Shown: positions 15,619 to 55,333 of the stretch, piece by piece | Layout of the letters: each line of letters begins with the position of its first letter | Position numbering within the stretch: position 1 is the stretch's first letter | Origin: a virus | Taxonomy: Duplodnaviria; Caudoviricetes | Direction: 5' to 3' (one strand) | DNA: 64,000 nucleotides | IMG/VR virus record: IMGVR_UViG_3300050034_000334 | Notes under the pieces: model-generated | Told to the model about the DNA's origin: nothing | Databases searched by the model: none | What the model saw: the letters and a program-made list of their open reading frames with translations, nothing else | Made by a program: the position numbers and the translations under genes

Positions 15619-16758
15619 TTGTCTCTGATAACTCACAGACCCAAGAATTTCAACGATGTTGTGGGTCAGACTCGAGCAATTCGTGTGCTCACAGCAATTA
15701 TGACCAAAGCTATCTTTATTCCAAGAGGTTTCCTACTCGAAGGGCAAGTAGGAACCGGCAAAACCTCTGTTGGCTACCTTCTTGCGAAGGCCCTGATGTG
15801 TCACAACGATCCTCTGGGCTGCAACAGTTGCCCTTCCTGCATTCTCATAGCCGAACAAGGAATTGAGCAGCACCCAGACTTCCTAGAAGTGGACGCGGCG
15901 AGCAATCGAGGGGTGGAGAACGCTCGCAACATCCTACTCCAAGCGGAGTCCTTGTCAGTTATAGGGAAGCGGCGGGTGGTGTTGATTGACGAGGCTCATG
16001 ACCTGACAACGCTGGCCTGGGATGTCTTTCTGAAGCCTTTGGAAGTGAAGGACAACAACAGCGTGTTTATCTTCGCTTCGAGCGAGGGTGATTCCATTCC
16101 CAAGACCATCCGATCACGTTGCGCCAAGGCTCGTTTCAACATCATTCCTGAGGATCTTCTGCTTGGTTTGCTCTGTAACACAGCCAATGCACACAACATC
16201 AAGTACGACATGGATGCGATGAAACTGATTGCCAGGGTGTCCAAGGGAATCGTGCGCGATGCCTACACCACTTTGGACTCGGTTGCTTCGATGGGATTGG
16301 TCACCAAGGAACTCGTACAGGCTGTCGTAGATACAAGCCTAGACGATTCATGCGTGAAGATCTTTCTCCATATCCTTCGCAAAGAGCAAATCGAGGCTTG
16401 CAAGATCTGCGACGAAGCCTGTGGTGCCAACTCTCCGGTCAAGGTCATCCAGACGATGTTTGAAGTTTATGGCAGGGCGATCTTCAAGCCAGAGGGACCG
16501 GCTCATGAAGCCATTCGAGCCGGATTGGGTAACGTATCATTGGTTACTTCAGTTTTCATAAAGTGGAGCCTGCTTTCGAGCCTATCATTGGATGCGATGC
16601 CTTTGTTCATCATCGACATGATGAACATGCTTGAACCTGAAAATAGACAGACAAACAGGCAAACGTATGTTATCTCCGGTCCTTCTAAATCAGATATGGC
16701 AGAGGAAGTACTCAATATTCGGGAGCTACTGCAGCAAACTGGTGGTCATGTCGATTAA
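15619..16758 (+). CDS. dnaX: DNA polymerase III gamma/tau-like clamp loader subunit
   Basis: HRPKNFNDVVGQ, GQVGTGKT, CNSCPSC, DFLEVDAASNRGVE, IDEAH, TIRSRC. Confidence 0.92.
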   Translation: MSLITHRPKNFNDVVGQTRAIRVLTAIMTKAIFIPRGFLLEGQVGTGKTSVGYLLAKALMCHNDPLGCNSCPSCILIAEQGIEQHPDFLEVDAASNRGVENARNILLQAESLSVIGKRRVVLIDEAHDLTTLAWDVFLKPLEVKDNNSVFIFASSEGDSIPKTIRSRCAKARFNIIPEDLLLGLLCNTANAHNIKYDMDAMKLIARVSKGIVRDAYTTLDSVASMGLVTKELVQAVVDTSLDDSCVKIFLHILRKEQIEACKICDEACGANSPVKVIQTMFEVYGRAIFKPEGPAHEAIRAGLGNVSLVTSVFIKWSLLSSLSLDAMPLFIIDMMNMLEPENRQTNRQTYVISGPSKSDMAEEVLNIRELLQQTGGHVD

Positions 16759-16869
16759 TCGAATATTTTCTTCAAATTGCTCGTTATGTGAAATTCACAG
16801 TATAGATTAGTAGCCATCGGTGTCGGTTGTTCTCTGTTAACCTTGCCTTCACCGACAACTGAGGTTACT

Positions 16870-17445
16870 ATGTCCTGCATCTACTTGCTGACTAACGTAG
16901 TGAACAAAAAAGTCTATGTTGGCAAGACAAAAGGAGATCCTCTCTTCCGTTGGAGGGAACACGTACACGATGCGAATAACGGAAGTATTCTTCCATTTCA
17001 CTGTGCATTGCGTAAGTACGGAGTAGAGAATTTTCAGTTGTCAACTTTGGTGCTTGGAGATTACTCTAGAGAAGATCTGAATAATTTAGAAAAACAGTTC
17101 ATCTCTGATTACCAATCCTACCCTCCAAATCTTGGATTTGGATACAATTCCAGCCCAGGAGGAGATGGTGGTGCAGAGATTGCACTTGGACCAAAAAGTC
17201 AAGCAACTCGTGACAAGATATCAAAATCCAGACTGGGTTATGTGGTTCCTAGAGAGCAAGTAGAAAGACAGCGAGCTAAACTACTAGGAAGAAAGCAGTC
17301 TCCTGAGCACATTAAGAAGAGATTGGCTCATCTTGGGGATAGAAACCATAAAAACCTAGGAAGAACTTTGTCACCAGAGTGGAGAGCTCACATTTCTCTT
17401 GGTCTTCTAAAATGGAACAGAAAGAAGACGGAGGTGGAGGCTTGA
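16870..17445 (+). CDS. GIY-YIG homing endonuclease with NUMOD3
   Basis: CIYLLTNVVNKKVYVGKT, GYNSSPGG, QSPEHIKKR. Confidence 0.88.
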   Translation: MSCIYLLTNVVNKKVYVGKTKGDPLFRWREHVHDANNGSILPFHCALRKYGVENFQLSTLVLGDYSREDLNNLEKQFISDYQSYPPNLGFGYNSSPGGDGGAEIALGPKSQATRDKISKSRLGYVVPREQVERQRAKLLGRKQSPEHIKKRLAHLGDRNHKNLGRTLSPEWRAHISLGLLKWNRKKTEVEA

Positions 17446-18626
17446 TCCTTTTTTATGGGGACAGAAAGGTTCTAGAAGGCCGGGTGTGGTACCTTCTCGA
17501 GCTGTCTAGTGATAAGACTGTTCAGTCTATCATGAAACGGGTCGGAAAGGCCATACCGAGCATATTTCGGGACCAATCTATAGAAATTTTCCTCCCAGTA
17601 TTTGAGCGCGATCTCGATGAGTTCGACATGCGAACTGGCAACTATATCTTTGCCAGATCCACTGGACTTACACAGTTACTTAGACTCAAGACCATAACTG
17701 GAATAGTGGGAATTGTAACTGAGGGCGAGTGTAATCGACCTTCAAAAGCCATCTTGGTTGAAGACGACTATGTTCAGCAAGTCATGTGCGATGCCAAGAA
17801 GGCATTCGATGACAGGATCTTGGGGATCAAGGTCGGCAGTTTCGTGAGGATTCTCGATGGGGAGACCCGCGACTATTGTGGCAAGGTGACTGTGATTCAC
17901 GACGGCAAGGCGGCGGTCCAGGTCGAGCTCAAGACGAAGCTGGTTATCATAGAAACACCCCTTCGAAATCTCATCAATCTTCCTCATGTCCCTCCGGAAC
18001 AGCAGGTCTTCTACTATGGACCTCTGGTGAAGGAGATGATGGACGAGCAGCAGGACAACGGTCGACTTCTGGTCGAGGAAGATCTTGAGTACGAAGATGA
18101 GATCCCGGTCGAGGTGGACATTCCTCTCATCACAGATGACATCAATCACCATTCCAGACAGAAGACCATCACGGCGCTCGCCAAGCGTTTGGTCTTTGAA
18201 GGAATCACTGAGCCGGTGCCCTTGGCTGCCAGAGTGATCACTGCCATCAAGGCTCACGAGGTCAAGGCCCCGAAGAATCTCTTCATCGTTTACTGCGTGC
18301 TGAAATCCTCTCTGATGGACAATCACTTCACCAAGATCGATCCCACGATCAAGAACTATCGCGATGTCATACACAAGTTTGGCAAGTCATACAAGTTTTC
18401 TGCCAACGACATCGCGGAGATCGATCCAGAGCTTGGCATTCCGATCACAACCATTGGTGTTTGCAATGACGGACGATCTCGTGAGGCTCGTCTCAAGAAG
18501 CTGATGATGGCTTCAAGTAGTGAACCTGAGACAGTCCTTTGCATAGTGGAACCAGAGAAAACGATCATTCGTAGTATCGAGAATGAGCCTCACGAAATGC
18601 GGTTGCTGACTGCCGGAGTGAATTGA
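17442..18626 (+). CDS. NusG-family transcription factor (NGN+KOW) with ~200 aa C-terminal extension
   Basis: WYLLEL, EIFLP, GNYIFAR, IKVGSFVRILDG..RDYCGKVTVI; TTG start with GGAGG RBS. Confidence 0.75.
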   Translation: MILFYGDRKVLEGRVWYLLELSSDKTVQSIMKRVGKAIPSIFRDQSIEIFLPVFERDLDEFDMRTGNYIFARSTGLTQLLRLKTITGIVGIVTEGECNRPSKAILVEDDYVQQVMCDAKKAFDDRILGIKVGSFVRILDGETRDYCGKVTVIHDGKAAVQVELKTKLVIIETPLRNLINLPHVPPEQQVFYYGPLVKEMMDEQQDNGRLLVEEDLEYEDEIPVEVDIPLITDDINHHSRQKTITALAKRLVFEGITEPVPLAARVITAIKAHEVKAPKNLFIVYCVLKSSLMDNHFTKIDPTIKNYRDVIHKFGKSYKFSANDIAEIDPELGIPITTIGVCNDGRSREARLKKLMMASSSEPETVLCIVEPEKTIIRSIENEPHEMRLLTAGVN

Positions 18627-35783: not shown

Positions 35784-36314
35784 TCAATAGAACAGGTACT
35801 TCTTCCACTTTTCCATGCCGGCACCCATAGAACGAATCAGGTTCCGGTTGGTGTGAATGGTCAATGGACGAGGGTAGCGAATCAGTTTCATGTCCTTGAT
35901 ATCGCTCAGATCCCTGTCGCCCTTCTTCTGGTTGCAAGCCTGACAAGCCGTGACCAGGTTCTCCCAGCAGTTCCTTCCACCCTTGGACTTCGGTACAACG
36001 TGGTCCCAGGTGAGATTCTTTGCTGAGAACTGAACACCGCAGTACTGGCAGGTGTAACCGTCGCGAAGGTAGATGTTCCGTCTGCTCAACTCCTGCTGAC
36101 GGTGTGGCACCTTCCGGTACTTCACCAGCCTGACTACGCAAGGAAGAAAGAATCCTGGACGAACCAAGAGGTCATACTCTTCCTCAGACTTGGCAACTCC
36201 CTTGATTACCATGCACAGTGCCCGCTGAGCACTCGCATAGCGCAGCGGCTCGTAACTGGCATTCAGTACGAGAACCGGAGTCGACTTGATGAGAGTGTTG
36301 GTTGCGGACAACAT
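35784..36314 (-). CDS. HNH endonuclease (McrA-like)
   Basis: VLVLNASYEP, NIYLRDGYTCQYCG, DHVVPKSKGG..WENLVTACQACNQKK. Confidence 0.92.
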   Translation of the reverse strand: MLSATNTLIKSTPVLVLNASYEPLRYASAQRALCMVIKGVAKSEEEYDLLVRPGFFLPCVVRLVKYRKVPHRQQELSRRNIYLRDGYTCQYCGVQFSAKNLTWDHVVPKSKGGRNCWENLVTACQACNQKKGDRDLSDIKDMKLIRYPRPLTIHTNRNLIRSMGAGMEKWKKYLFY

Positions 36315-36374: not shown

Positions 36375-37001
36375 TCAGGCTGCCGACTTGATAGAGTCTA
36401 AAATTCTCACACATCTGGTCAAGTACCTGCTTCCTGAAGAATCACTCAATCCGACTTTTCTTAATGCTTGAGAAACAGTTTCAGACGTTCTTAGAGCTTC
36501 AAGCAACTGTTCATCTGAAATTCTTCCTTCGCTACTTCTACCCACTTTGTTTCCGCAATAGGTGGGCAACTGACTGTCACAATTGGGACAAATACCTCTG
36601 AAGTTACTGCGAGAATTGTTGGATCGCACACCATCTATGTGATCTAGCCGAAGAGATATGGGTTTTCCATTCCACTCGTCAATCCCACAGATTAAGCACT
36701 TTCCTCCTTGTTCCCTTACAACCCTTTCCTTCTTACTGCCATACCCTAGATCTTCAAAGGGAGTAGCAGCTGATCTGGCGAGTATCTTGGCAGCCCGTTT
36801 CTTTATCGCCTCTGCTGACTGAGAATTTTCTCGAAAGGTGACGTACTTTTCATGATGTTCGGAGTACGCCTTCCTGCTCTTCTCACTCCTGCTCCGATTT
36901 ACCTCCGGAGTCCAGGTCCTTGAATGACTACATTTGGAAGAGCAGAAATTTCCTTCTCCGTATGAGCCATCATGTTCCTTACCACACTTCTTGCAGATCA
37001 T
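36375..37001 (-). CDS. HNH homing endonuclease
   Basis: CKKCGKEHDG...CSSKC; LDHIDGVRSNN.RSNFRGICPNCD. Confidence 0.88.
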   Translation of the reverse strand: MICKKCGKEHDGSYGEGNFCSSKCSHSRTWTPEVNRSRSEKSRKAYSEHHEKYVTFRENSQSAEAIKKRAAKILARSAATPFEDLGYGSKKERVVREQGGKCLICGIDEWNGKPISLRLDHIDGVRSNNSRSNFRGICPNCDSQLPTYCGNKVGRSSEGRISDEQLLEALRTSETVSQALRKVGLSDSSGSRYLTRCVRILDSIKSAA

Positions 37002-38137: not shown

Positions 38138-38545
38138 TCACCACTCGAAGTCCTTTGCAAGATGAACATTCTTCACCTGCATATTCTTCGTCGGAGTAAA
38201 TCTAAGTGTCACAGTTCCGCCTCCTTGAAATTGTTGGATCGGTAACCAGTAGCACTTTTCTGTAGCGGGCAAGTAAGCAACTACCACATCAATCTCTTCA
38301 GACGTGTACTTCTTCTTGTATCCGCTATTTCGGCATTCAGCCGATAGACCCACTTCAACAGAATCCTTCGTCAAGCTACAGCTGCAATACTTCACTTGAA
38401 CCCTGAGAAGTTCCTTTCCGTTGTCGACCACCAAGTCGTACCTGGCGTCTACAGAAGGAACGCTCACAATCCATCCCAACTCGGTGGCTCGGAGCATGAC
38501 TTTCAGCTTTCCGATCTCACCCTTTTGATGAGTGCTTGCTAGCAT
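38138..38545 (-). CDS. PD-(D/E)XK endonuclease of the group I intron-associated (I-Ssp6803I-like) family
   Basis: KGEIG, RYDLVVD, RVQVKY, YTSEEIDVVVAY. Confidence 0.85.
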   Translation of the reverse strand: MLASTHQKGEIGKLKVMLRATELGWIVSVPSVDARYDLVVDNGKELLRVQVKYCSCSLTKDSVEVGLSAECRNSGYKKKYTSEEIDVVVAYLPATEKCYWLPIQQFQGGGTVTLRFTPTKNMQVKNVHLAKDFEW

Positions 38546-38567
38546 ATCTCATCAATACTCAAAACTT

Positions 38568-38643
38568 TGGTGCGAGCGGAGGGGATCGAACCCCCGACGT
38601 CCCGGTTAAGAGCCGGTTACTCTACCAACTGAGTTACGCTCGC
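38568..38643 (-). tRNA. tRNA-Lys (CTT)
   Basis: Cloverleaf, loop CTCTTAA, CCA. Confidence 0.95.
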
Positions 38644-38747
38644 ACATCTACAAAAAGGCTCTCCGGGGAGGTGGGCCATCCCTCCATACACTCCTCGCGA
38701 AAGAGAGTGTGTCTTGCCACTATGAAACGACCGGAAACTTACAAATT

Positions 38748-38913
38748 CAACGCCGGTGCTCTATCCAGGCTGAGCTACCACCAAGCGAATGGACCGTTCC
38801 GCCGACCTTGATTCCCCTCTAGAAAAGGAATCCTGGGACTCTTAGGGCATGGTCACTTGCTCTGTCTAAACGGGTGGGTTGGATTCGGACCAACGACCAC
38901 CGGCTGCTTGTTG
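38748..38913 (-). ncRNA. Circularly permuted tRNA-like RNA (class I core, no anticodon loop, no CCA)
   Basis: 3' half (38904-38871) precedes 5' half (38784-38752); stems complementary. Confidence 0.75.
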
Positions 38914-38938
38914 GGCGGAATGATCACACCCGAATCTT

Positions 38939-39013
38939 TGGCTCCTGAGGAGGGATTCGAACCCACAACCATTCGGTTAACAGCCGAACGCTCTGCCGTT
39001 GAGCTACCCAGGA
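38939..39013 (-). tRNA. tRNA-Asn (GTT)
   Basis: Cloverleaf, loop CTGTTAA, CCA. Confidence 0.95.
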
Positions 39014-39020
39014 ACACTTG

Positions 39021-39215
39021 TTATACTGCAACTTCCTCAATCTCGATCTGAACCTTCTTGCTGCTCATCACTTCGTCAGCAACACCGAAGGCAACCTCAT
39101 AATCCTCAAATCTGGTTGCCTCGTAGCGATATCCAAACCTCAAAGTGCGGGTGATCGCAGCATCGTCTGAGATGACATAGTTCGATGTATTCGGTACTCT
39201 CAAGATGTGCTGCAT
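39021..39215 (-). CDS. Small hypothetical protein
   Basis: ORF; motif variant (N15) upstream. Confidence 0.5.
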   Translation of the reverse strand: MQHILRVPNTSNYVISDDAAITRTLRFGYRYEATRFEDYEVAFGVADEVMSSKKVQIEIEEVAV

Positions 39216-39692: not shown

Positions 39693-39737
39693 AAACTTTA
39701 TTGCACGAACGAAAAGTAGACTAAGAGGCGGTGCAAA

Positions 39738-39884
39738 CTACTTGATGAACAATCCGTCAATCACGCTCTTGGCTTTGTCTTCCGTTCTGACATAGTTCCG
39801 GACCACGTAGGTCTCGGCTATGATGCGAAAGCCGCCATCTCGTAAAGGATGAATCGTATACCCGCGATATATTGTGTCTTCCAT
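39738..39884 (-). CDS. 48 aa protein, probably leaderless
   Basis: MEDTIYRGYTIHPL; ATG 6 nt after GTAGAG. Confidence 0.55.
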   Translation of the reverse strand: MEDTIYRGYTIHPLRDGGFRIIAETYVVRNYVRTEDKAKSVIDGLFIK

Positions 39885-40001: not shown

Positions 40002-40571
40002 TTGAATCCAGACTTTCGGAACCATTACTGGAGGTTCCAATTGAAATCTTGCGAAAATTGCACTACTCTTCACGATGGTACTTATGGTTCTGGTCGTTTC
40101 TGTTCAATTGGCTGTGCTAGAGGCTTTGCCACCAAAGCATCTAGGTTAAAAATCAACCAAGAAGTGAGTGCTAAACTGAAGGGTAAACCTGTTCGTAATC
40201 GTAGTCCTCATAGTAAAGAAGTGAAGGAAAAGATACGCAGAAGCATCAATCAAGGATTTCAAATCAAATTCCAAAAGTGGATAGATGACTGGCTTTCCGG
40301 AAAGATACATCCCACAAGAGCCAACTATAGAGTAGTGCACAAAGCATTAGCCATTTTAAGAGGAGATAAGTGTGAACAATGCGGTTGGAAAGAGGTTCAT
40401 CCGAAAACTGGACTTATCCCAGTGCAACTTCATCATATTGACGGTGATGGAGATAACAATTCACCAGATAATGTGAAACTGTTGTGTCCAAGCTGTCATT
40501 CACTCACTCTCAATTTCATGGCTTTGAACTACTACAACAAATTGTCAAAGATCACGCCGTTGTTCGCCTGA
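40002..40571 (+). CDS. HNH homing endonuclease, antisense to the tRNA operon
   Basis: CENC..HDG...CS..C; CEQCG..QLHHIDGDGDNN..NVKLLCPSCH. Confidence 0.88.
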   Translation: MNPDFRNHYWRFQLKSCENCTTLHDGTYGSGRFCSIGCARGFATKASRLKINQEVSAKLKGKPVRNRSPHSKEVKEKIRRSINQGFQIKFQKWIDDWLSGKIHPTRANYRVVHKALAILRGDKCEQCGWKEVHPKTGLIPVQLHHIDGDGDNNSPDNVKLLCPSCHSLTLNFMALNYYNKLSKITPLFA

Positions 40572-40665: not shown

Positions 40666-40693
40666 AACTCGAACTCGGCTCGTGCAAAAACTT

Positions 40694-41010: not shown

Positions 41011-41134
41011 CAGTGATTACGGAATCCTTTGTAACAAAACACTCAACCATGAAGGATTCGAACCTTCGCTATGAATGCACCCAATCATGACACTGTTCAG
41101 CACCAGGGGTCTACAAAGGATTCCGTAATCACTG
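41011..41134 (-). ncRNA. Small RNA closed by a perfect 23 bp inverted repeat, contains a T-arm
   Basis: IR 41011-41033/41112-41134; GAAGG-TTCGAAT-CCTTC inside; starts just after promoter motif. Confidence 0.6.
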
Positions 41135-41426: not shown

Positions 41427-42500
41427 TCATCGGTCAGTTGGGCATCGGCCATCGTTCAGACGAAGAGTGAACTGAGCGATATGAACTGGCTCATTCTCTT
41501 TGATGGCCTTCTGCCAGTAGAACTGATACTGACTGGCGTAACCTGCCAGCTGGGCATCCTCCAGTGTGAACTTCACAAAGGGGATGAGATTTTTGCCTCC
41601 CTCGATGCCGAACAAACGGGGACCAAGAGCCTTCCTGATTCTGGCATAGGTGTAGCTGATGTAGATGCCAGGACTGGTGACGTTGCACCAGTTCTCAATG
41701 TCGAGGATGGTGTTCTTCCCGACTGCAGCTGAGTTGAACTGCCAGGCCAGGACGTTCCATGCCAACTGAGGAGAGACTACAGCGTTCTCGCTGGGCTTGA
41801 TCACCTTGCTAACTTCTTCGAACAGTTCCTCAGCCGCCACAAGGTTCGCTTCTGCTCCCTCCTTCTCCCGGGAGCGCATCTTCTTGTAGTCCTTGCCCAG
41901 AACCAGACCCATCGGCTTGTGCTGATCTCCCAATCCCAGGCTCTTGAAATGTTCGTGTTGCTCATACCCTGTCAGATATAAGTCCGGAGCACAGAATTCT
42001 ACGAAGCTCAGATCGTGTGCTGCATAGGTTGGACGACCGTCAGAGCGGTATATCACGACACCGTTGAACATCTTACAGCCTTCGTACTCTCCGGTGCCGG
42101 GAGTCAGTGTGTATCCTGTGGGCGGCTTCATGTCCCTATCAAATAAGATGAATGGCTGATATCCGGAGATGTGACACCAGTTGTTGAATGCCGTGTACGC
42201 TCCCTCTTTCTCGCCAATGGTGACTCCCAGCATTGCGACTGGCTTGGCTTTGGTGATATTTGCCAGCGCGGCGGCGATTGCCAGGTTCTTGATGTGCCCG
42301 ACATGAAGGTCTTTGTTGAGGTTAGGTGAGAATCCATCCAGAGTTATCTCGGATGGTTTGGCTTTCTCAGGCCATTCCCAGACGGTTGGCGTTACATGGT
42401 AGTTGTGGTAAATACCCACAGATTCATAACGAAATCCCTTGAGATCGAGTGGAGTGAGTGAAGTGACACCAACTCCCACTTGTTCAGGTATAGGATGCAT
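41427..42500 (-). CDS. Minimal arginyl-tRNA synthetase-like class I aaRS
   Basis: FSPNLNKDLHVGH (HIGH), YRSDG.PTYAAHDL, GYEQHEHF, KMRSR (KMSKS), YISYTYARI. Confidence 0.8.
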   Translation of the reverse strand: MHPIPEQVGVGVTSLTPLDLKGFRYESVGIYHNYHVTPTVWEWPEKAKPSEITLDGFSPNLNKDLHVGHIKNLAIAAALANITKAKPVAMLGVTIGEKEGAYTAFNNWCHISGYQPFILFDRDMKPPTGYTLTPGTGEYEGCKMFNGVVIYRSDGRPTYAAHDLSFVEFCAPDLYLTGYEQHEHFKSLGLGDQHKPMGLVLGKDYKKMRSREKEGAEANLVAAEELFEEVSKVIKPSENAVVSPQLAWNVLAWQFNSAAVGKNTILDIENWCNVTSPGIYISYTYARIRKALGPRLFGIEGGKNLIPFVKFTLEDAQLAGYASQYQFYWQKAIKENEPVHIAQFTLRLNDGRCPTDR

Positions 42501-42553
42501 GAGATCTTCCTCTCCAACCACATTCTACCAGAAGATGCCGGAATAAGGCTAGT

Positions 42554-55160: not shown

Positions 55161-55173
55161 ACTTACTAAACTC

Positions 55174-55329
55174 TTGTACGAACGAATGACGAGATGGGAA
55201 ATGCCTTTCGGCTACCGCTGCCTTTGCCAGCTTGGCTACTCCCCGTCATGGTCGGGGAGACAGGACTCGAACCTGTGAAGACTTTCGTCGGCGGTTCCAA
55301 GATAACCCACTACTCTACGGCTCGTACAA
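55174..55329 (-). ncRNA. Circularly permuted class II tRNA-like RNA with internal ACCA
   Basis: 3' half (55295-55249), TGA linker, 5' half (55245-55214); 8 bp terminal stem. Confidence 0.85.
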
Positions 55330-55333
55330 AACT

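What the first reader, a model, noticed from the sequence alone, without database searches (positions are those of the whole stretch)
38748..38913. Second permuted tRNA mimic (class I, acceptor capped by an ~86 nt domain)
Seen (minus strand): GCCGG-TGGTC-GTTGG-TCCGAAT-CCAAC-CCACCCG (38904-38871), an ~86 nt hairpin-containing insert (e.g. GATTCC...GGAATC), then TTGGTGG-TA-GCTC-AGCCTGGATA-GAGC-A-CCGGC (38784-38752). The anticodon stem pairs 5/5 and extends via CAAC/GTTG after an AAGCA bulge; the acceptor pairs 5 WC + 1 GU + 1 mismatch; there is no CCA. The D-loop has an Arg-like A20. The T-arm, acceptor, D-arm order is the YrlA-type layout. One such element in each attenuated array suggests a deliberate class of elbow-mimic RNAs.
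Basis: partly seen in the sequence, partly recalled or inferred. Interest (0 to 1): 0.8.

Follow-up and report, generated by a model that had tools for sequence, protein, structure and literature searches.

The report
Anticodon-less tRNA-Arg mimic in phage
Among the tRNA genes of an uncultured peat-soil jumbo phage sits a back-to-front arginine-tRNA look-alike with no anticodon and a sealed acceptor end, which recurs in the phage's only cultured relative and is probably a non-decoding tRNA decoy or scaffold related to bacterial Y RNAs.

Summary
The 3' half of a tRNA comes first, then 86 nt, then the matching 5' half. There is no anticodon loop and no CCA.

- **Real tRNA body:** un-permuted in silico, ARAGORN calls it a tRNA (0 of 200 shuffles).
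- **Arginine type:** positions 8-48 equal the common bacterial tRNA-Arg(UCU) core.
- **Independent model:** a covariance model built from 14 permuted modules of other phages ranks it first in the window (51 bits).
- **Relatives:** the same design recurs in the cultured jumbo phage Tunturi_5 (unannotated, PP885688.1:253899-254012) and in uncultured phage L018. It has the GGAUA D loop, a 5-bp closing helix, no CCA and a 48-114 nt cap, with compensatory stem changes. L083 holds an altered homologue.
- **Not an Rfam YrlA member:** the layout is YrlA-like, but there is no hit and no Ro-binding handle, although sister Y-like RNAs in this genome have one. No TROVE gene lies in the 187-kb record or in Tunturi_5's complete genome.

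Most likely it is a Ro-independent, non-decoding tRNA-Arg mimic transcribed with the tRNA operon. Its decoy or scaffold role is inferred, and a decaying relic remains possible. The scan has noted YrlA-like permuted mimics before, in many phages and in this window. I rate it a new variant of a known kind.

The parts
38905..38938 (-). 34-nt leader between the CCA of tRNA-Asn and the closing stem. It contains GCCCAACAAGCA; CAAC (38913-38910) can pair with GUUG (38751-38748) across the AAGCA bulge.
   Evidence: The leader motif GCCCAACAAGYAG is conserved upstream of the homologous element in L083 (local score 24, 0 of 2000 shuffles; 1 of 6 orphan T arms tested). The CAAC/GUUG pairing is not conserved in L083 or Tunturi_5.
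38900..38904 (-). GCCGG, the 5'-proximal strand of the closing helix; it corresponds to the 3' strand of a tRNA anticodon stem.
   Evidence: Pairs 5/5 with CCGGC at 38756-38752. It is identical to the anticodon stem of common bacterial tRNA-Arg(UCU).
38895..38899 (-). Variable loop UGGUC; C48 can form the Levitt pair with G15.
   Evidence: The same UGGUC occurs in bacterial tRNA-Arg(UCU).
38878..38894 (-). T arm GUUGG-UCCGAAU-CCAAC, with C instead of U at position 55.
   Evidence: The identical 21-mer occurs in real phage tRNAs and in the YrlA-like RNA of L018. All 30 phage tRNA genes whose T loop the pattern parsed have U54-U55.
38871..38877 (-). Acceptor 3' strand CCACCCG, followed by UUUA and not by N-CCA.
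   Evidence: 30 of the phage's 31 tRNA genes encode CCA.
38785..38870 (-). 86-nt cap that seals the acceptor end. It is predicted to form an irregular hairpin with a 10-bp GAUUCCUUUU/GAGGGGAAUC tip.
   Evidence: MFE -21.5 kcal/mol. No Rfam match. Weak word sharing with the Tunturi_5 cap: UAGACAGA, GAACGG, GUCCAU; 6-mer p about 0.02. One strain variant has G>A at 38800.
38778..38784 (-). Acceptor 5' strand UUGGUGG.
   Evidence: Pairs with 38871-38877: 5 Watson-Crick pairs, 1 GU and 1 mismatch.
38757..38777 (-). U8 A9, D arm GCUC-AGCCUGGAUA-GAGC (G18 G19 A20) and A26.
   Evidence: GGAUA is found only in the 3 phage tRNA-Arg genes. The best annotated GenBank phage matches are tRNA-Arg, 17 of 17 listed. 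A strain variant deletes the CC at 38768-38769 and keeps G18 G19.
38752..38756 (-). CCGGC, the 3'-proximal strand of the closing helix; it corresponds to the 5' strand of a tRNA anticodon stem.
38748..38751 (-). GUUG, a possible 4-bp extension of the closing helix.
   Evidence: Read from the sequence. It is not conserved in the homologues.
38939..39013 (-). Upstream neighbour tRNA-Asn(GUU), with encoded CCA.
38568..38643 (-). Downstream neighbour tRNA-Lys(CUU). About 104 nt with two hairpins lie between it and the element.
55171..55332 (-). Sister element: a class II permuted tRNA-like RNA with encoded ACCA and the Y-RNA-like handle UUUGUACGAGCCGU...UUCGUUCGUACAA.
   Evidence: Rfam YrlA 22.6 bits; R1 37.5 bits.

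Best explanation
The element is a functional, non-decoding tRNA mimic of the YrlA design. It is a circularly permuted tRNA-Arg(UCU)-type body transcribed as part of the phage tRNA operon. Shown: the order is closing-helix strand, variable loop, T arm, acceptor 3' strand, 86-nt cap, acceptor 5' strand, D arm, closing-helix strand. All nucleotides that build the tRNA elbow and core are present except U55 (here C). There is no anticodon loop and no free CCA end, so the transcript as encoded can neither decode nor be charged. Inferred: it folds into the tRNA L shape, with the anticodon arm replaced by a short closed helix and the acceptor arm prolonged by the cap. Inferred: it works by being bound as a tRNA-Arg look-alike by proteins that read the D loop (A20), the elbow or the core, as a decoy or scaffold in the phage-host contest over tRNA damage and repair. 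The phage carries its own RNA ligase and CCA-adding enzyme. Unlike its sister RNAs in the same genome it has no Ro-binding handle, so it probably acts without Ro60. I give about 0.55 to 'functional tRNA mimic of this design'. The specific decoy or scaffold role taken alone is no better than about 0.3.
For: - **tRNA body:** ARAGORN calls it a tRNA after in-silico un-permutation, against 0 of 200 shuffles.
- **Independent model:** R1, built from 14 permuted modules of other phages, ranks it first in the window at 51.1 bits.
- **Family covariation:** 91% of cells pair, against about 42% for slid controls. The closing helix, which my selection did not enforce, pairs in 75% of cells, and its inner two pairs covary.
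- **Same design elsewhere:** Tunturi_5 has CCCGG/CCGGG, AGGUC, a 5-bp acceptor with 2 mismatches, no CCA, a 48-nt cap and the D loop AGCUGGAUA; it scores 53.7 bits and is not part of any called tRNA. L018 has GGGGU/GCCCC, a 114-nt cap and the D loop AAUGGAUA.
- **Compensatory changes:** across the three, the closing, T and acceptor stems all differ yet still pair, while the D arm stays fixed.
- **Age:** Tunturi_5 is the only GenBank phage that matches a window tail protein, at 30.7% identity, so the design has persisted across deep divergence.
- **Leader homologue:** L083 carries a homologue with the conserved leader GCCCAACAAGYAG and a compensated closing stem ACGGG/CCCGU.
- **Arg identity:**
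- **Context:** sister permuted modules exist in the same genome, as do a phage RNA ligase and a CCA-adding enzyme. Tunturi 5 is reported to encode a tRNA nucleotidyltransferase and a tRNA splicing ligase (PMC11924767).
- **Strains and RNA libraries:** the element is identical in a strain whose neighbouring tRNA-Lys differs at 22 positions, and it lies inside contigs of two metatranscriptome libraries. This is weak, because DNA carry-over is not excluded.
Against: - No function, binding partner or processing has been measured.
- Folding energy is no better than for shuffles: z -0.69 for 171 nt and +0.75 for 295 nt.
- The cap shows no firm conservation.
- C55, the U2xC71 mismatch and the missing CCA could be signs of decay.
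- R1 is not specific. Junctions of tandem tRNA genes reach 45 bits, so the model shows a permuted tRNA body, not function.
- Only three or four relatives are known, and the L083 copy has an altered acceptor and D region.
- One Y-like RNA in this genome is visibly truncated relative to L012, so such elements do decay here.
- There is no Rfam YrlA hit and no handle.
Confidence: 0.55

Rival explanations
1. It is a decaying relic. It could be the junction of a former tandem pair of tRNA-Arg(UCU) genes, or a dead Y-like RNA, that lost the outer halves. It would be transcribed only because it lies inside the operon, and would have no function of its own.
For: - Junctions of tandem tRNA genes look very similar to the model (45 bits), and most long-gap pattern hits in IMG/VR were tandem isoacceptors.
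- Four homing-endonuclease-type ORFs sit in this array and could drive rearrangements.
- C55, the acceptor mismatch and the absent CCA differ from all real tRNAs of the phage.
- There is no thermodynamic signal, and the cap is not firmly conserved.
- A truncated Y-like RNA exists in the same genome.
Against: - Both ends stop exactly at the stem boundaries, and no vestige of an anticodon loop or of the missing halves is seen.
- The sequence after the acceptor lacks the N-CCA-AAGUUU signature that follows the phage's tRNAs.
- The same odd design, with compensatory changes, is kept in Tunturi_5 and L018, and the leader is kept in L083.
- All tertiary-contact nucleotides but one are intact.
Confidence: 0.2
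2. It is the precursor of a two-piece tRNA-like RNA. RNase P would cut before U1 and a 3' nuclease would remove the cap. The phage or host CCA-adding enzyme would then add CCA, as happens to Mycobacterium smegmatis YrlA. The nicked molecule, held together by its stems, might even be arginylated for a use outside the ribosome.
For: - M. smegmatis YrlA is cut by RNase P and receives CCA in vivo (PMC4201824).
- The phage encodes a CCA-adding-type enzyme although 30 of its 31 tRNA genes already carry CCA.
- The body carries the major ArgRS identity nucleotide A20. That is established knowledge for E. coli tRNA-Arg; its presence here is shown.
- The sister elements encode CCA followed by 3-6-nt linkers.
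Against: - The acceptor has only 5 Watson-Crick pairs plus U.G and a mismatch next to the would-be cleavage site. Chen et al. saw RNase P cutting only for a 7-bp stem.
- Position +1 is U and -1 is C.
- ArgRS also needs C35, which is absent.
- No read ends could be examined, because only contigs were available.
Confidence: 0.12
3. It is a conventional Ro60/Rsr-bound Y RNA (a true YrlA) whose handle is too divergent to recognise. It would use a Ro60 encoded by the host or by the unsequenced part of the phage genome.
For: - Sister RNAs in the genome carry a Y-RNA-like handle.
- The record is only about 60% complete.
- The YrlA core model matches the Tunturi_5 element at 29.7 bits.
Against: - There is no Rfam YrlA hit even at E 10.
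- No GNCGAA-type motif and none of the phage's own ACGAGCCGU handle lies in the flanks.
- The Tunturi_5 match covers model positions 23-85 only, which is the core without the handle.
- Tunturi_5's complete genome has no TROVE match at E 1.
Confidence: 0.08
4. It is a genuine permuted tRNA gene. As in Cyanidioschyzon merolae, it would be circularised and re-cut to give a decoding tRNA.
For: The gene order (3' half, linker, 5' half) is the same, and the phage has an RNA ligase.
Against: - No anticodon loop can be assembled from the flanks. The candidates lack U33 or a purine at position 37.
- There is no bulge-helix-bulge motif and no CCA.
- No splicing endonuclease is known in bacteria (general knowledge).
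Confidence: 0.02

Closest known systems
YrlA (Y RNA-like A; Rfam RF02553; Chen et al. 2014, PMC4201824; Wang et al. 2018, bioRxiv 10.1101/312249)
   Same: A permuted tRNA-like domain in the order T arm, closed acceptor stem, D arm. The anticodon arm is replaced by a helix that closes the junction, and the tRNA tertiary nucleotides are kept. YrlA is known from bacteria and 22 phages.
   Different: There is no GNCGAA/Ro-binding stem and no Ro60 gene nearby. The cap is 86 nt instead of a few nucleotides. Position 55 is C, so no pseudouridine 55 is possible. The body is an exact tRNA-Arg(UCU) core. The element gets no Rfam match, against a gathering score of 69 bits.
Sister Y-like RNAs of the same phage (window 55171-55332; genome 154075-154219)
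   Same: Same genome, same strand, inside tRNA arrays, with the same permutation.
   Different: The sisters carry the handle UUUGYACGAGCCGU...UUCGUUCGURCAA, an encoded N-CCA and 3-6-nt linkers. Their bodies are class II or Asp/Glu-like, not Arg-like.
Unannotated element of Tunturiibacter phage Tunturi_5 (PP885688.1:253899-254012) and of uncultured phage L018 (L018:4664-4842, minus)
   Same: An Arg-type D loop GGAUA, A26, a 5-bp closing helix, a 5-6-bp acceptor with terminal mismatches, no CCA, a long cap (48 and 114 nt), no handle, and a position inside a tRNA array.
   Different: They have a canonical UUCGAAU T loop, different stem sequences (compensated), different cap sequences and different neighbouring tRNAs.
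Mycobacterium smegmatis YrlA processing (PMC4201824)
   Same: A capped acceptor that could be opened by RNase P and completed by CCA addition.
   Different: That RNA has a 7-bp acceptor stem and binds Rsr. Processing here is untested.
Circularly permuted tRNA genes of Cyanidioschyzon merolae and Thermofilum pendens (from general knowledge; reviewed in PMC4090602)
   Same: The 3' half is encoded upstream of the 5' half and joined to it through the acceptor end.
   Different: Those genes regain a full anticodon loop by bulge-helix-bulge cleavage and ligation, and they decode. This element has no loop and no such motif.
Two-piece (permuted) tmRNA (from general knowledge; Rfam tmRNA_permuted RF04321 matched another site in L007)
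   Same: A permuted gene in which the T arm and acceptor 3' strand precede the acceptor 5' strand, with an intervening segment.
   Different: tmRNA has CCA, G3.U70, no D stem and a tag reading frame. ARAGORN finds no tmRNA in this genome.

Membership tests
YrlA (Rfam RF02553) | Score at or above the curated gathering threshold (69 bits) | tested here: not met
   No match at E up to 10 in 291 nt or in the whole record. Related phage elements reach only 22-41 bits.
YrlA (Rfam RF02553) | tRNA-like domain in the order T arm, closed acceptor stem, D arm, with a closing helix | tested here: met
YrlA (Rfam RF02553) | GNCGAAN0-1G motif / Ro-binding stem near the 5' end (PMC4201824) | tested here: not met
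   No such motif is seen in the 34-nt leader, by reading its sequence. The phage's own handle words ACGAGCCGU and UUCGUUCGU occur at other sites only.
YrlA (Rfam RF02553) | Encoded within about 4 kb of a Ro60/TROVE gene on the same strand (PMC4201824) | tested here: not met
   No TROVE match in the 187-kb record, which is about 60% complete and therefore inconclusive on its own. There is also none at E 1 in the complete genome of Tunturi_5, which carries the same kind of element.
YrlA (Rfam RF02553) | tRNA-type modifications (pseudouridine 55, dihydrouridine) and Rsr binding | not testable with these tools
   C at position 55 excludes pseudouridine 55. The rest needs experiments.
Canonical decoding tRNA | 7-nt anticodon loop and a free acceptor end with (addable) CCA | tested here: not met
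   ARAGORN and Rfam tRNA do not call it. There is no loop between the stem strands and the acceptor is sealed.
   51.1 bits, E 5e-13, model positions 1-72, top hit of the window. Caveat: tandem tRNA junctions reach 45 bits.
Arg-type long-capped subgroup (Tunturi_5, L018, this element) | GGAUA D loop, A26, 5-bp closing helix, no CCA, cap of 48 nt or more, no handle | tested here: met
Permuted tRNA gene (C. merolae type) | Bulge-helix-bulge junction that restores an anticodon loop | tested here: not met
   Inspection of the flanks: there is one 5-nt bulge on one strand only, and no loop with U33 and a purine at position 37 can be formed.
Permuted tmRNA | Detection by ARAGORN or Rfam tmRNA models; CCA; tag reading frame | tested here: not met

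The most novel reading that the evidence does not exclude
Jumbo phages of Acidobacteriota keep a dedicated, Ro-independent copy of the host-type tRNA-Arg(UCU) body with the anticodon removed. It would act either as an uncleavable decoy that titrates a host factor aimed at tRNA-Arg (an anticodon nuclease, a modification enzyme or ArgRS), or, after RNase P cutting and CCA addition, as a two-piece arginine acceptor used outside translation.
Probability: 0.12. Interest if true: 0.85.

Novelty: new variant of a known kind. Interest (0 to 1): 0.5.

Why it matters
tRNA mimics of the YrlA type are known, but only as partners of Ro60, and what their tRNA-like domain does is still open. This is a variant stripped to the tRNA body alone. 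It has a precise amino-acid identity (Arg, UCU type), no Ro handle and no Ro60 gene, and it has been kept in distantly related jumbo phages. That points to a job for the tRNA shape itself. Because the same design sits unannotated in a cultured phage-host pair (Tunturi_5 on Tunturiibacter psychrotolerans), the question can be tested directly at the bench. The finding also warns that phage tRNA arrays hold structured RNAs that tRNA finders and Rfam both miss.

Tried and rejected
- **Rfam at permissive threshold** on the element gave only a spurious lncRNA match.
- **Folding energies** are no better than shuffles.
- **Terminators:** no terminator-like site lies on the element's strand nearby.
- **Relatives through the ArgRS-like protein:** The search for related loci found nothing. 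Seven contigs fetched through its homologues mostly lacked tRNA arrays; only L083/L084 and L088 had them.
- **IMG/VR scans for a C55 T loop plus D arm at 51-112 nt** returned almost only tandem isoacceptor tRNAs.
- **A 17-nt identity with L012** lies in a coding region and I treat it as chance.
- **A shared GCGGAA/GAGCAA motif** that I saw by eye between this cap and the caps of L058, L022, L108, L104, L018 and L060 failed a shuffle test (p 0.12-0.98). Only the Ala-linked caps are related to each other.
- **A Ro-like bulged helix in the cap** (GGUC-C-AUU with AGUGACC) has no comparative support.
- **ArgRS-like partner:** the gene is absent from Tunturi_5. By its matches to ArgRS models, the protein lacks the N-terminal part that precedes the HIGH motif in full-length ArgRS.
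- **Circularisation to a decoding tRNA, and an attP copy of a host tRNA:** no anticodon loop and no identity through the 3' end.
- **A 20-nt stretch (38677-38695) without cover in one RNA assembly**, and the contig ends there, are not interpretable.
- **RtcB and RlaP** are not in the held record.
Full report
**Setting.** The window is the minus strand of positions 47308-111307 of a 187,058-base IMG/VR virus record, estimated to be about 60% complete. ARAGORN finds 31 tRNA genes in the record, all on one strand and grouped in arrays; 18 lie in the window. The finding lies between tRNA-Asn(GUU) (38939-39013) and tRNA-Lys(CUU) (38568-38643). The only GenBank phage that matches a 955-aa window protein is the cultured jumbo phage Tunturiibacter phage Tunturi_5, at 30.7% identity over 98% of the protein. 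Tunturi_5 infects an acidobacterium from tundra soil (PMC11924767). Public runs that hold the stretch are peat, permafrost and wetland metagenomes.

**The observation.** Reading the minus strand:
- GCCGG, UGGUC, the T arm GUUGG-UCCGAAU-CCAAC and CCACCCG occupy 38904-38871.
- An 86-nt insert follows at 38870-38785.
- UUGGUGG, UA, GCUC-AGCCUGGAUA-GAGC, A and CCGGC occupy 38784-38752.

The two outer pentamers pair 5/5. The acceptor strands give 5 Watson-Crick pairs, one U.G pair and one mismatch. UUUA stands where N-CCA would be.

This is not chance, on four counts:
- When I joined the 5' half, any 7-nt loop and the 3' half in silico, ARAGORN called a tRNA every time. It called none of 200 versions with shuffled halves.
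- A T-arm scan of the whole record found four T arms outside called tRNAs, all on the tRNA strand and none on the other.
- A loose full descriptor gave 4 hits in 40 simulated genomes scanned on both strands.
- All tertiary-contact positions of a tRNA are present (U8, A14, G15-C48, G18, G19, A21, G53-C61, U54-A58, C56). The one exception is U55, which is C.

The element also differs from every real tRNA gene of the phage. Thirty of the 31 encode CCA, and all 30 whose T loop was parsed have U54-U55.

**Identity of the body.**
- The D loop GGAUA (A20) occurs in all three tRNA-Arg genes of the phage and in none of the other 28 tRNA genes.
- The best annotated GenBank phage matches of the 5' half are tRNA-Arg, 17 of the 17 annotated rows listed.
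ARAGORN called 112 of these as tRNAs, and 109 of the 112 are tRNA-Arg, most often with anticodon UCU.
- Set beside these genes, the element equals the common bacterial tRNA-Arg(UCU) from position 8 to position 48 with the anticodon loop removed: UA-GCUC-AGC(C)UGGAUA-GAGC-A-CCGGC ... GCCGG-UGGUC. Only the T and acceptor stems differ.

So the element is a permuted tRNA-Arg(UCU) body without a loop.

**Relation to YrlA.** The order T arm, closed acceptor, D arm is the one described for YrlA, the tRNA-like Y RNA of bacteria and some phages (PMC4201824).

The same genome holds clear Y-like RNAs. The element at window 55171-55332 and another at genome 154075-154219 are permuted tRNA bodies with an encoded N-CCA and 3-6-nt linkers. 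They are framed by a shared handle, UUUGYACGAGCCGU on the 5' side and UUCGUUCGURCAA on the 3' side, and the two sides pair with each other. By my recollection (not a tool result) this handle resembles the Ro-binding region of Y RNAs. Further copies of the handle occur elsewhere:
- as a bare hairpin at window 39701-39738;
- in front of tRNA-Met at window 40666-40693;
- in a copy after the Pro/Phe array that is truncated relative to the intact version in L012.

The Rfam YrlA model gives 22.6 bits for the first sister. It gives 32-41 bits for related elements in other phage contigs. All of these are below the gathering score of 69.

The finding itself gets no YrlA match at E up to 10. It contains none of the handle words, and no GNCGAA-type motif is visible in its leader. 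No TROVE domain is encoded in the held record.

The element is therefore YrlA-like in layout, but it fails the tests for membership.

**A wider family, and close counterparts.** A descriptor scan of all fetched loci found many permuted tRNA bodies that are not part of any called tRNA. They sit in phage tRNA arrays, often directly after the CCA of the preceding tRNA. Most caps are 3-23 nt long. Several are long (54-114 nt), and those lack CCA.

On an alignment of 14 such modules, none from this genome:
- 91% of cells form standard pairs, against about 42% when partners are slid.
- 18 of 21 pairs show changes on both sides.
- My selection enforced the T, D and inner acceptor stems. The closing helix was not enforced, yet it pairs in 75% of cells, and its two junction-proximal pairs covary.

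The covariance model R1 built from this alignment ranks the finding first in the whole window (51.1 bits, E 5e-13, full length). R1 is not specific, however. The junction of the adjacent tRNA-Gln and tRNA-His genes scores 45 bits, so R1 certifies a permuted tRNA body and nothing more.

Three elements share the particular design of the finding.
- **Tunturi_5, PP885688.1:253899-254012.** It is unannotated and lies after tRNA-Val. It reads CCCGG-AGGUC-GCCAG-UUCGAAU-CUGGC-UUCACUA, a 48-nt cap, then ACGUGAG-UA-GCUC-AGCUGGAUA-GAGC-A-CCGGG. That gives a 5-bp closing helix, a 5-bp acceptor with two terminal mismatches, no CCA and the Arg D loop. It scores 53.7 bits with R1, the best hit in that genome. 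The Rfam YrlA model matches it at positions 23-85 only, which is the core without the handle (29.7 bits).
- **L018:4664-4842 (minus).** It has GGGGU/GCCCC, a 114-nt cap, no CCA and the D loop AAUGGAUA.
- **L083:7623-7720.** This phage's ArgRS-like protein is 55% identical to the window's. The element shares the leader GCCCAACAAGYAG with the finding (local score 24, reached by 0 of 2000 shuffles; 1 of 6 orphan T arms tested). It has a compensated closing stem ACGGG/CCCGU, but its acceptor and D region are altered.

Across the finding, Tunturi_5 and L018, the closing, T and acceptor stems all differ in sequence yet stay paired, while the D arm and A26 stay fixed. The 5' halves of the finding and of the Tunturi_5 element are each other's best match (0.88, against at most 0.80 to any real tRNA of either phage). 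Because both also resemble the general tRNA-Arg consensus, this is only mild support for common descent.

**The cap.** The 86-nt insert is predicted to form an irregular hairpin. Nothing confirms that fold.
- It has no Rfam match.
- It has no significant similarity to six other long caps (p 0.12-0.98).
- It shares only a few words with the Tunturi_5 cap: UAGACAGA, GAACGG and GUCCAU (6-mer p about 0.02, 8-mer p about 0.05).

A separate group of long-capped mimics that follow tRNA-Ala in GC-rich phages does have a conserved cap motif, AGUACGCGUWGCGGAA. That group is not related to this cap.

**Expression and variation.** Contigs assembled from two metatranscriptome libraries of different studies contain the whole element. 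One spans 38696-39156 with no difference, and one spans 38449-39179. The tool warns that DNA can be present in such libraries, so this is only a weak sign of transcription.
- In the second library's strain, the neighbouring tRNA-Lys differs at 22 positions while the element is identical.
- A DNA strain variant carries a 2-nt deletion in the length-variable part of the D loop (38768-38769), which leaves G18 G19 intact. It also carries one G>A change in the cap, at 38800.
- A 44-nt block (38770-38813) matches other contigs with four differences. That hints at a further relative, which I could not fetch.

**Partners and context.**
- The 364-aa gene upstream of the array (41427-42521) is a minimised ArgRS-like protein. 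It keeps the HIGH motif but lacks the N-terminal part that precedes that motif in full-length ArgRS, and that part is the region known to read A20. Its family is widespread and often sits next to an RNA ligase gene.
- Tunturi_5 has the mimic but no such protein and no TROVE protein in its complete genome. Neither can therefore be an obligatory phage-encoded partner.
- The record does encode an RNA ligase (PF09414) and a CCA-adding-type nucleotidyltransferase. Tunturi 5 is reported to encode a tRNA nucleotidyltransferase and a tRNA splicing ligase (PMC11924767).
- This places the mimic in a tRNA maintenance and repair setting, as for bacterial YrlA in the rsr-rtcBA operon (PMC7790460, listed).

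**Most likely explanation.** I take the element to be a functional, non-decoding tRNA-Arg mimic of the YrlA design that acts without the Ro handle (about 0.55).
- *Shown:* the permuted tRNA body, its Arg(UCU) identity, the lack of an anticodon loop and of CCA, and the recurrence of the design with compensatory changes in distant relatives.
- *Inferred:* the L-shaped fold, co-transcription with the array, and binding by proteins that read the tRNA-Arg D loop, elbow or core, as a decoy or scaffold in the contest over tRNA damage and repair.

The rivals:
- A decaying relic of tandem tRNA-Arg genes or of a Y-like RNA (about 0.2). C55, the acceptor mismatch, the unconserved cap and a truncated sister element favour it. 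The exact stem boundaries, the lack of vestiges and the conservation in relatives count against it.
- A precursor opened by RNase P and completed by CCA addition, as in M. smegmatis YrlA (about 0.12).
- A true Ro-bound Y RNA with an unrecognisable handle (about 0.08).
- A permuted gene for a decoding tRNA (about 0.02).

**Novelty.** In the held paper library I found YrlA, including phage copies (PMC4201824), but no description of permuted tRNAs in phages beyond it. This scan has noted YrlA-like permuted mimics in many other phages and in this window. What is new here is the variant: no handle, an exact tRNA-Arg(UCU) core, no CCA and a long cap, shared with a cultured phage in which it is not annotated. 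I rate it a new variant of a known kind, of moderate interest. It is directly testable in Tunturi_5.

Noticed in passing
window 39701-39738 (-) and 40666-40693 (-); genome 182906-183109 (outside the window): Further copies of the Y-RNA-like handle UUUGYAC(AC)GAGCCGU / UUCGUUCGURCAA. One is a bare hairpin without a tRNA-like insert. One is a 5' handle directly in front of tRNA-Met(CAU). One Y-like RNA after the Pro/Phe array is cut off in its T arm by a deletion of about 1.8 kb relative to the intact copy in L012 (L012:9787-9910).
   Followed up: partly
window 41017-41128 (-): A perfect 17-bp inverted repeat (UUACGGAAUCCUUUGUA / UACAAAGGAUUCCGUAA) encloses about 78 nt that contain a canonical T arm (GAAGG-UUCGAAU-CCUUC). 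It is not a called tRNA and has no Rfam match. It lies between the ArgRS-like gene and the tRNA array.
   Followed up: no
after most tRNA genes of the record, e.g. window 38930-38938 (-): The CCA of most phage tRNA genes is followed by a conserved AAGUUUUG / AAGAUU / AAGGUUUG motif. It may be a processing signal.
   Followed up: no
window 38575-38640: In one metatranscriptome-derived strain the tRNA-Lys(CUU) gene differs at 22 positions plus 2 insertions, while about 540 nt further on, including the mimic and tRNA-Asn, are identical. This looks like cassette-style replacement of a single tRNA gene.
   Followed up: no
L083:6435-8013 and 16206-17703: A related phage carries pairs of isoacceptor tRNA genes (Trp, His, Arg, Asn, Lys). 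In each pair one copy is of ordinary length (74-77 nt) and the other is 80-91 nt. Where I inspected a long copy (tRNA-Arg acg), the extra length is a hairpin in the variable region (...GAACGAAAGUUC...).
   Followed up: no
L022:2838-2975 (-), L058:3276-3393, L108:3988-4106, L104:1200-1318, L113:8656-8821: A family of long-capped, CCA-less permuted tRNA mimics in GC-rich phages. In the three clearest members (L022, L058, L108) the mimic starts directly after the CCA of a tRNA-Ala gene. The caps share the motif AGUACGCGUWGCGGAA. Rfam has no match for the L022 member.
   Followed up: partly
L088:515-4268: Near the ArgRS-like gene and a tRNA array, a related contig encodes an 840-aa protein with major-vault-protein shoulder and Vault_3 domains, and an RlaP nucleotidyltransferase.
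   Followed up: no
window 41427-42521 (-); L081, L085: The minimised ArgRS-like protein (364 aa) has 257 homologues of about 300-570 aa in metagenomes. In two fetched contigs it is immediately followed by an RNA ligase gene (PF09414).
   Followed up: partly
L016:1870, L017:11784, L019:8152: Ordinary-looking phage tRNA genes (anticodons read by eye as Met, Asn and Ile) from unrelated contigs share the exact 21-mer GGUCGUUGGUCCGAAUCCAAC. So a T loop with C at position 55 is used in tRNAs that are otherwise canonical.
   Followed up: no
window 35784-36314, 36375-37001, 38138-38545 (-), 40002-40571 (+): Four homing-endonuclease-type ORFs (HNH, and PD-(D/E)XK family PF11645) are interspersed among the tRNA genes of this array.
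   Followed up: no
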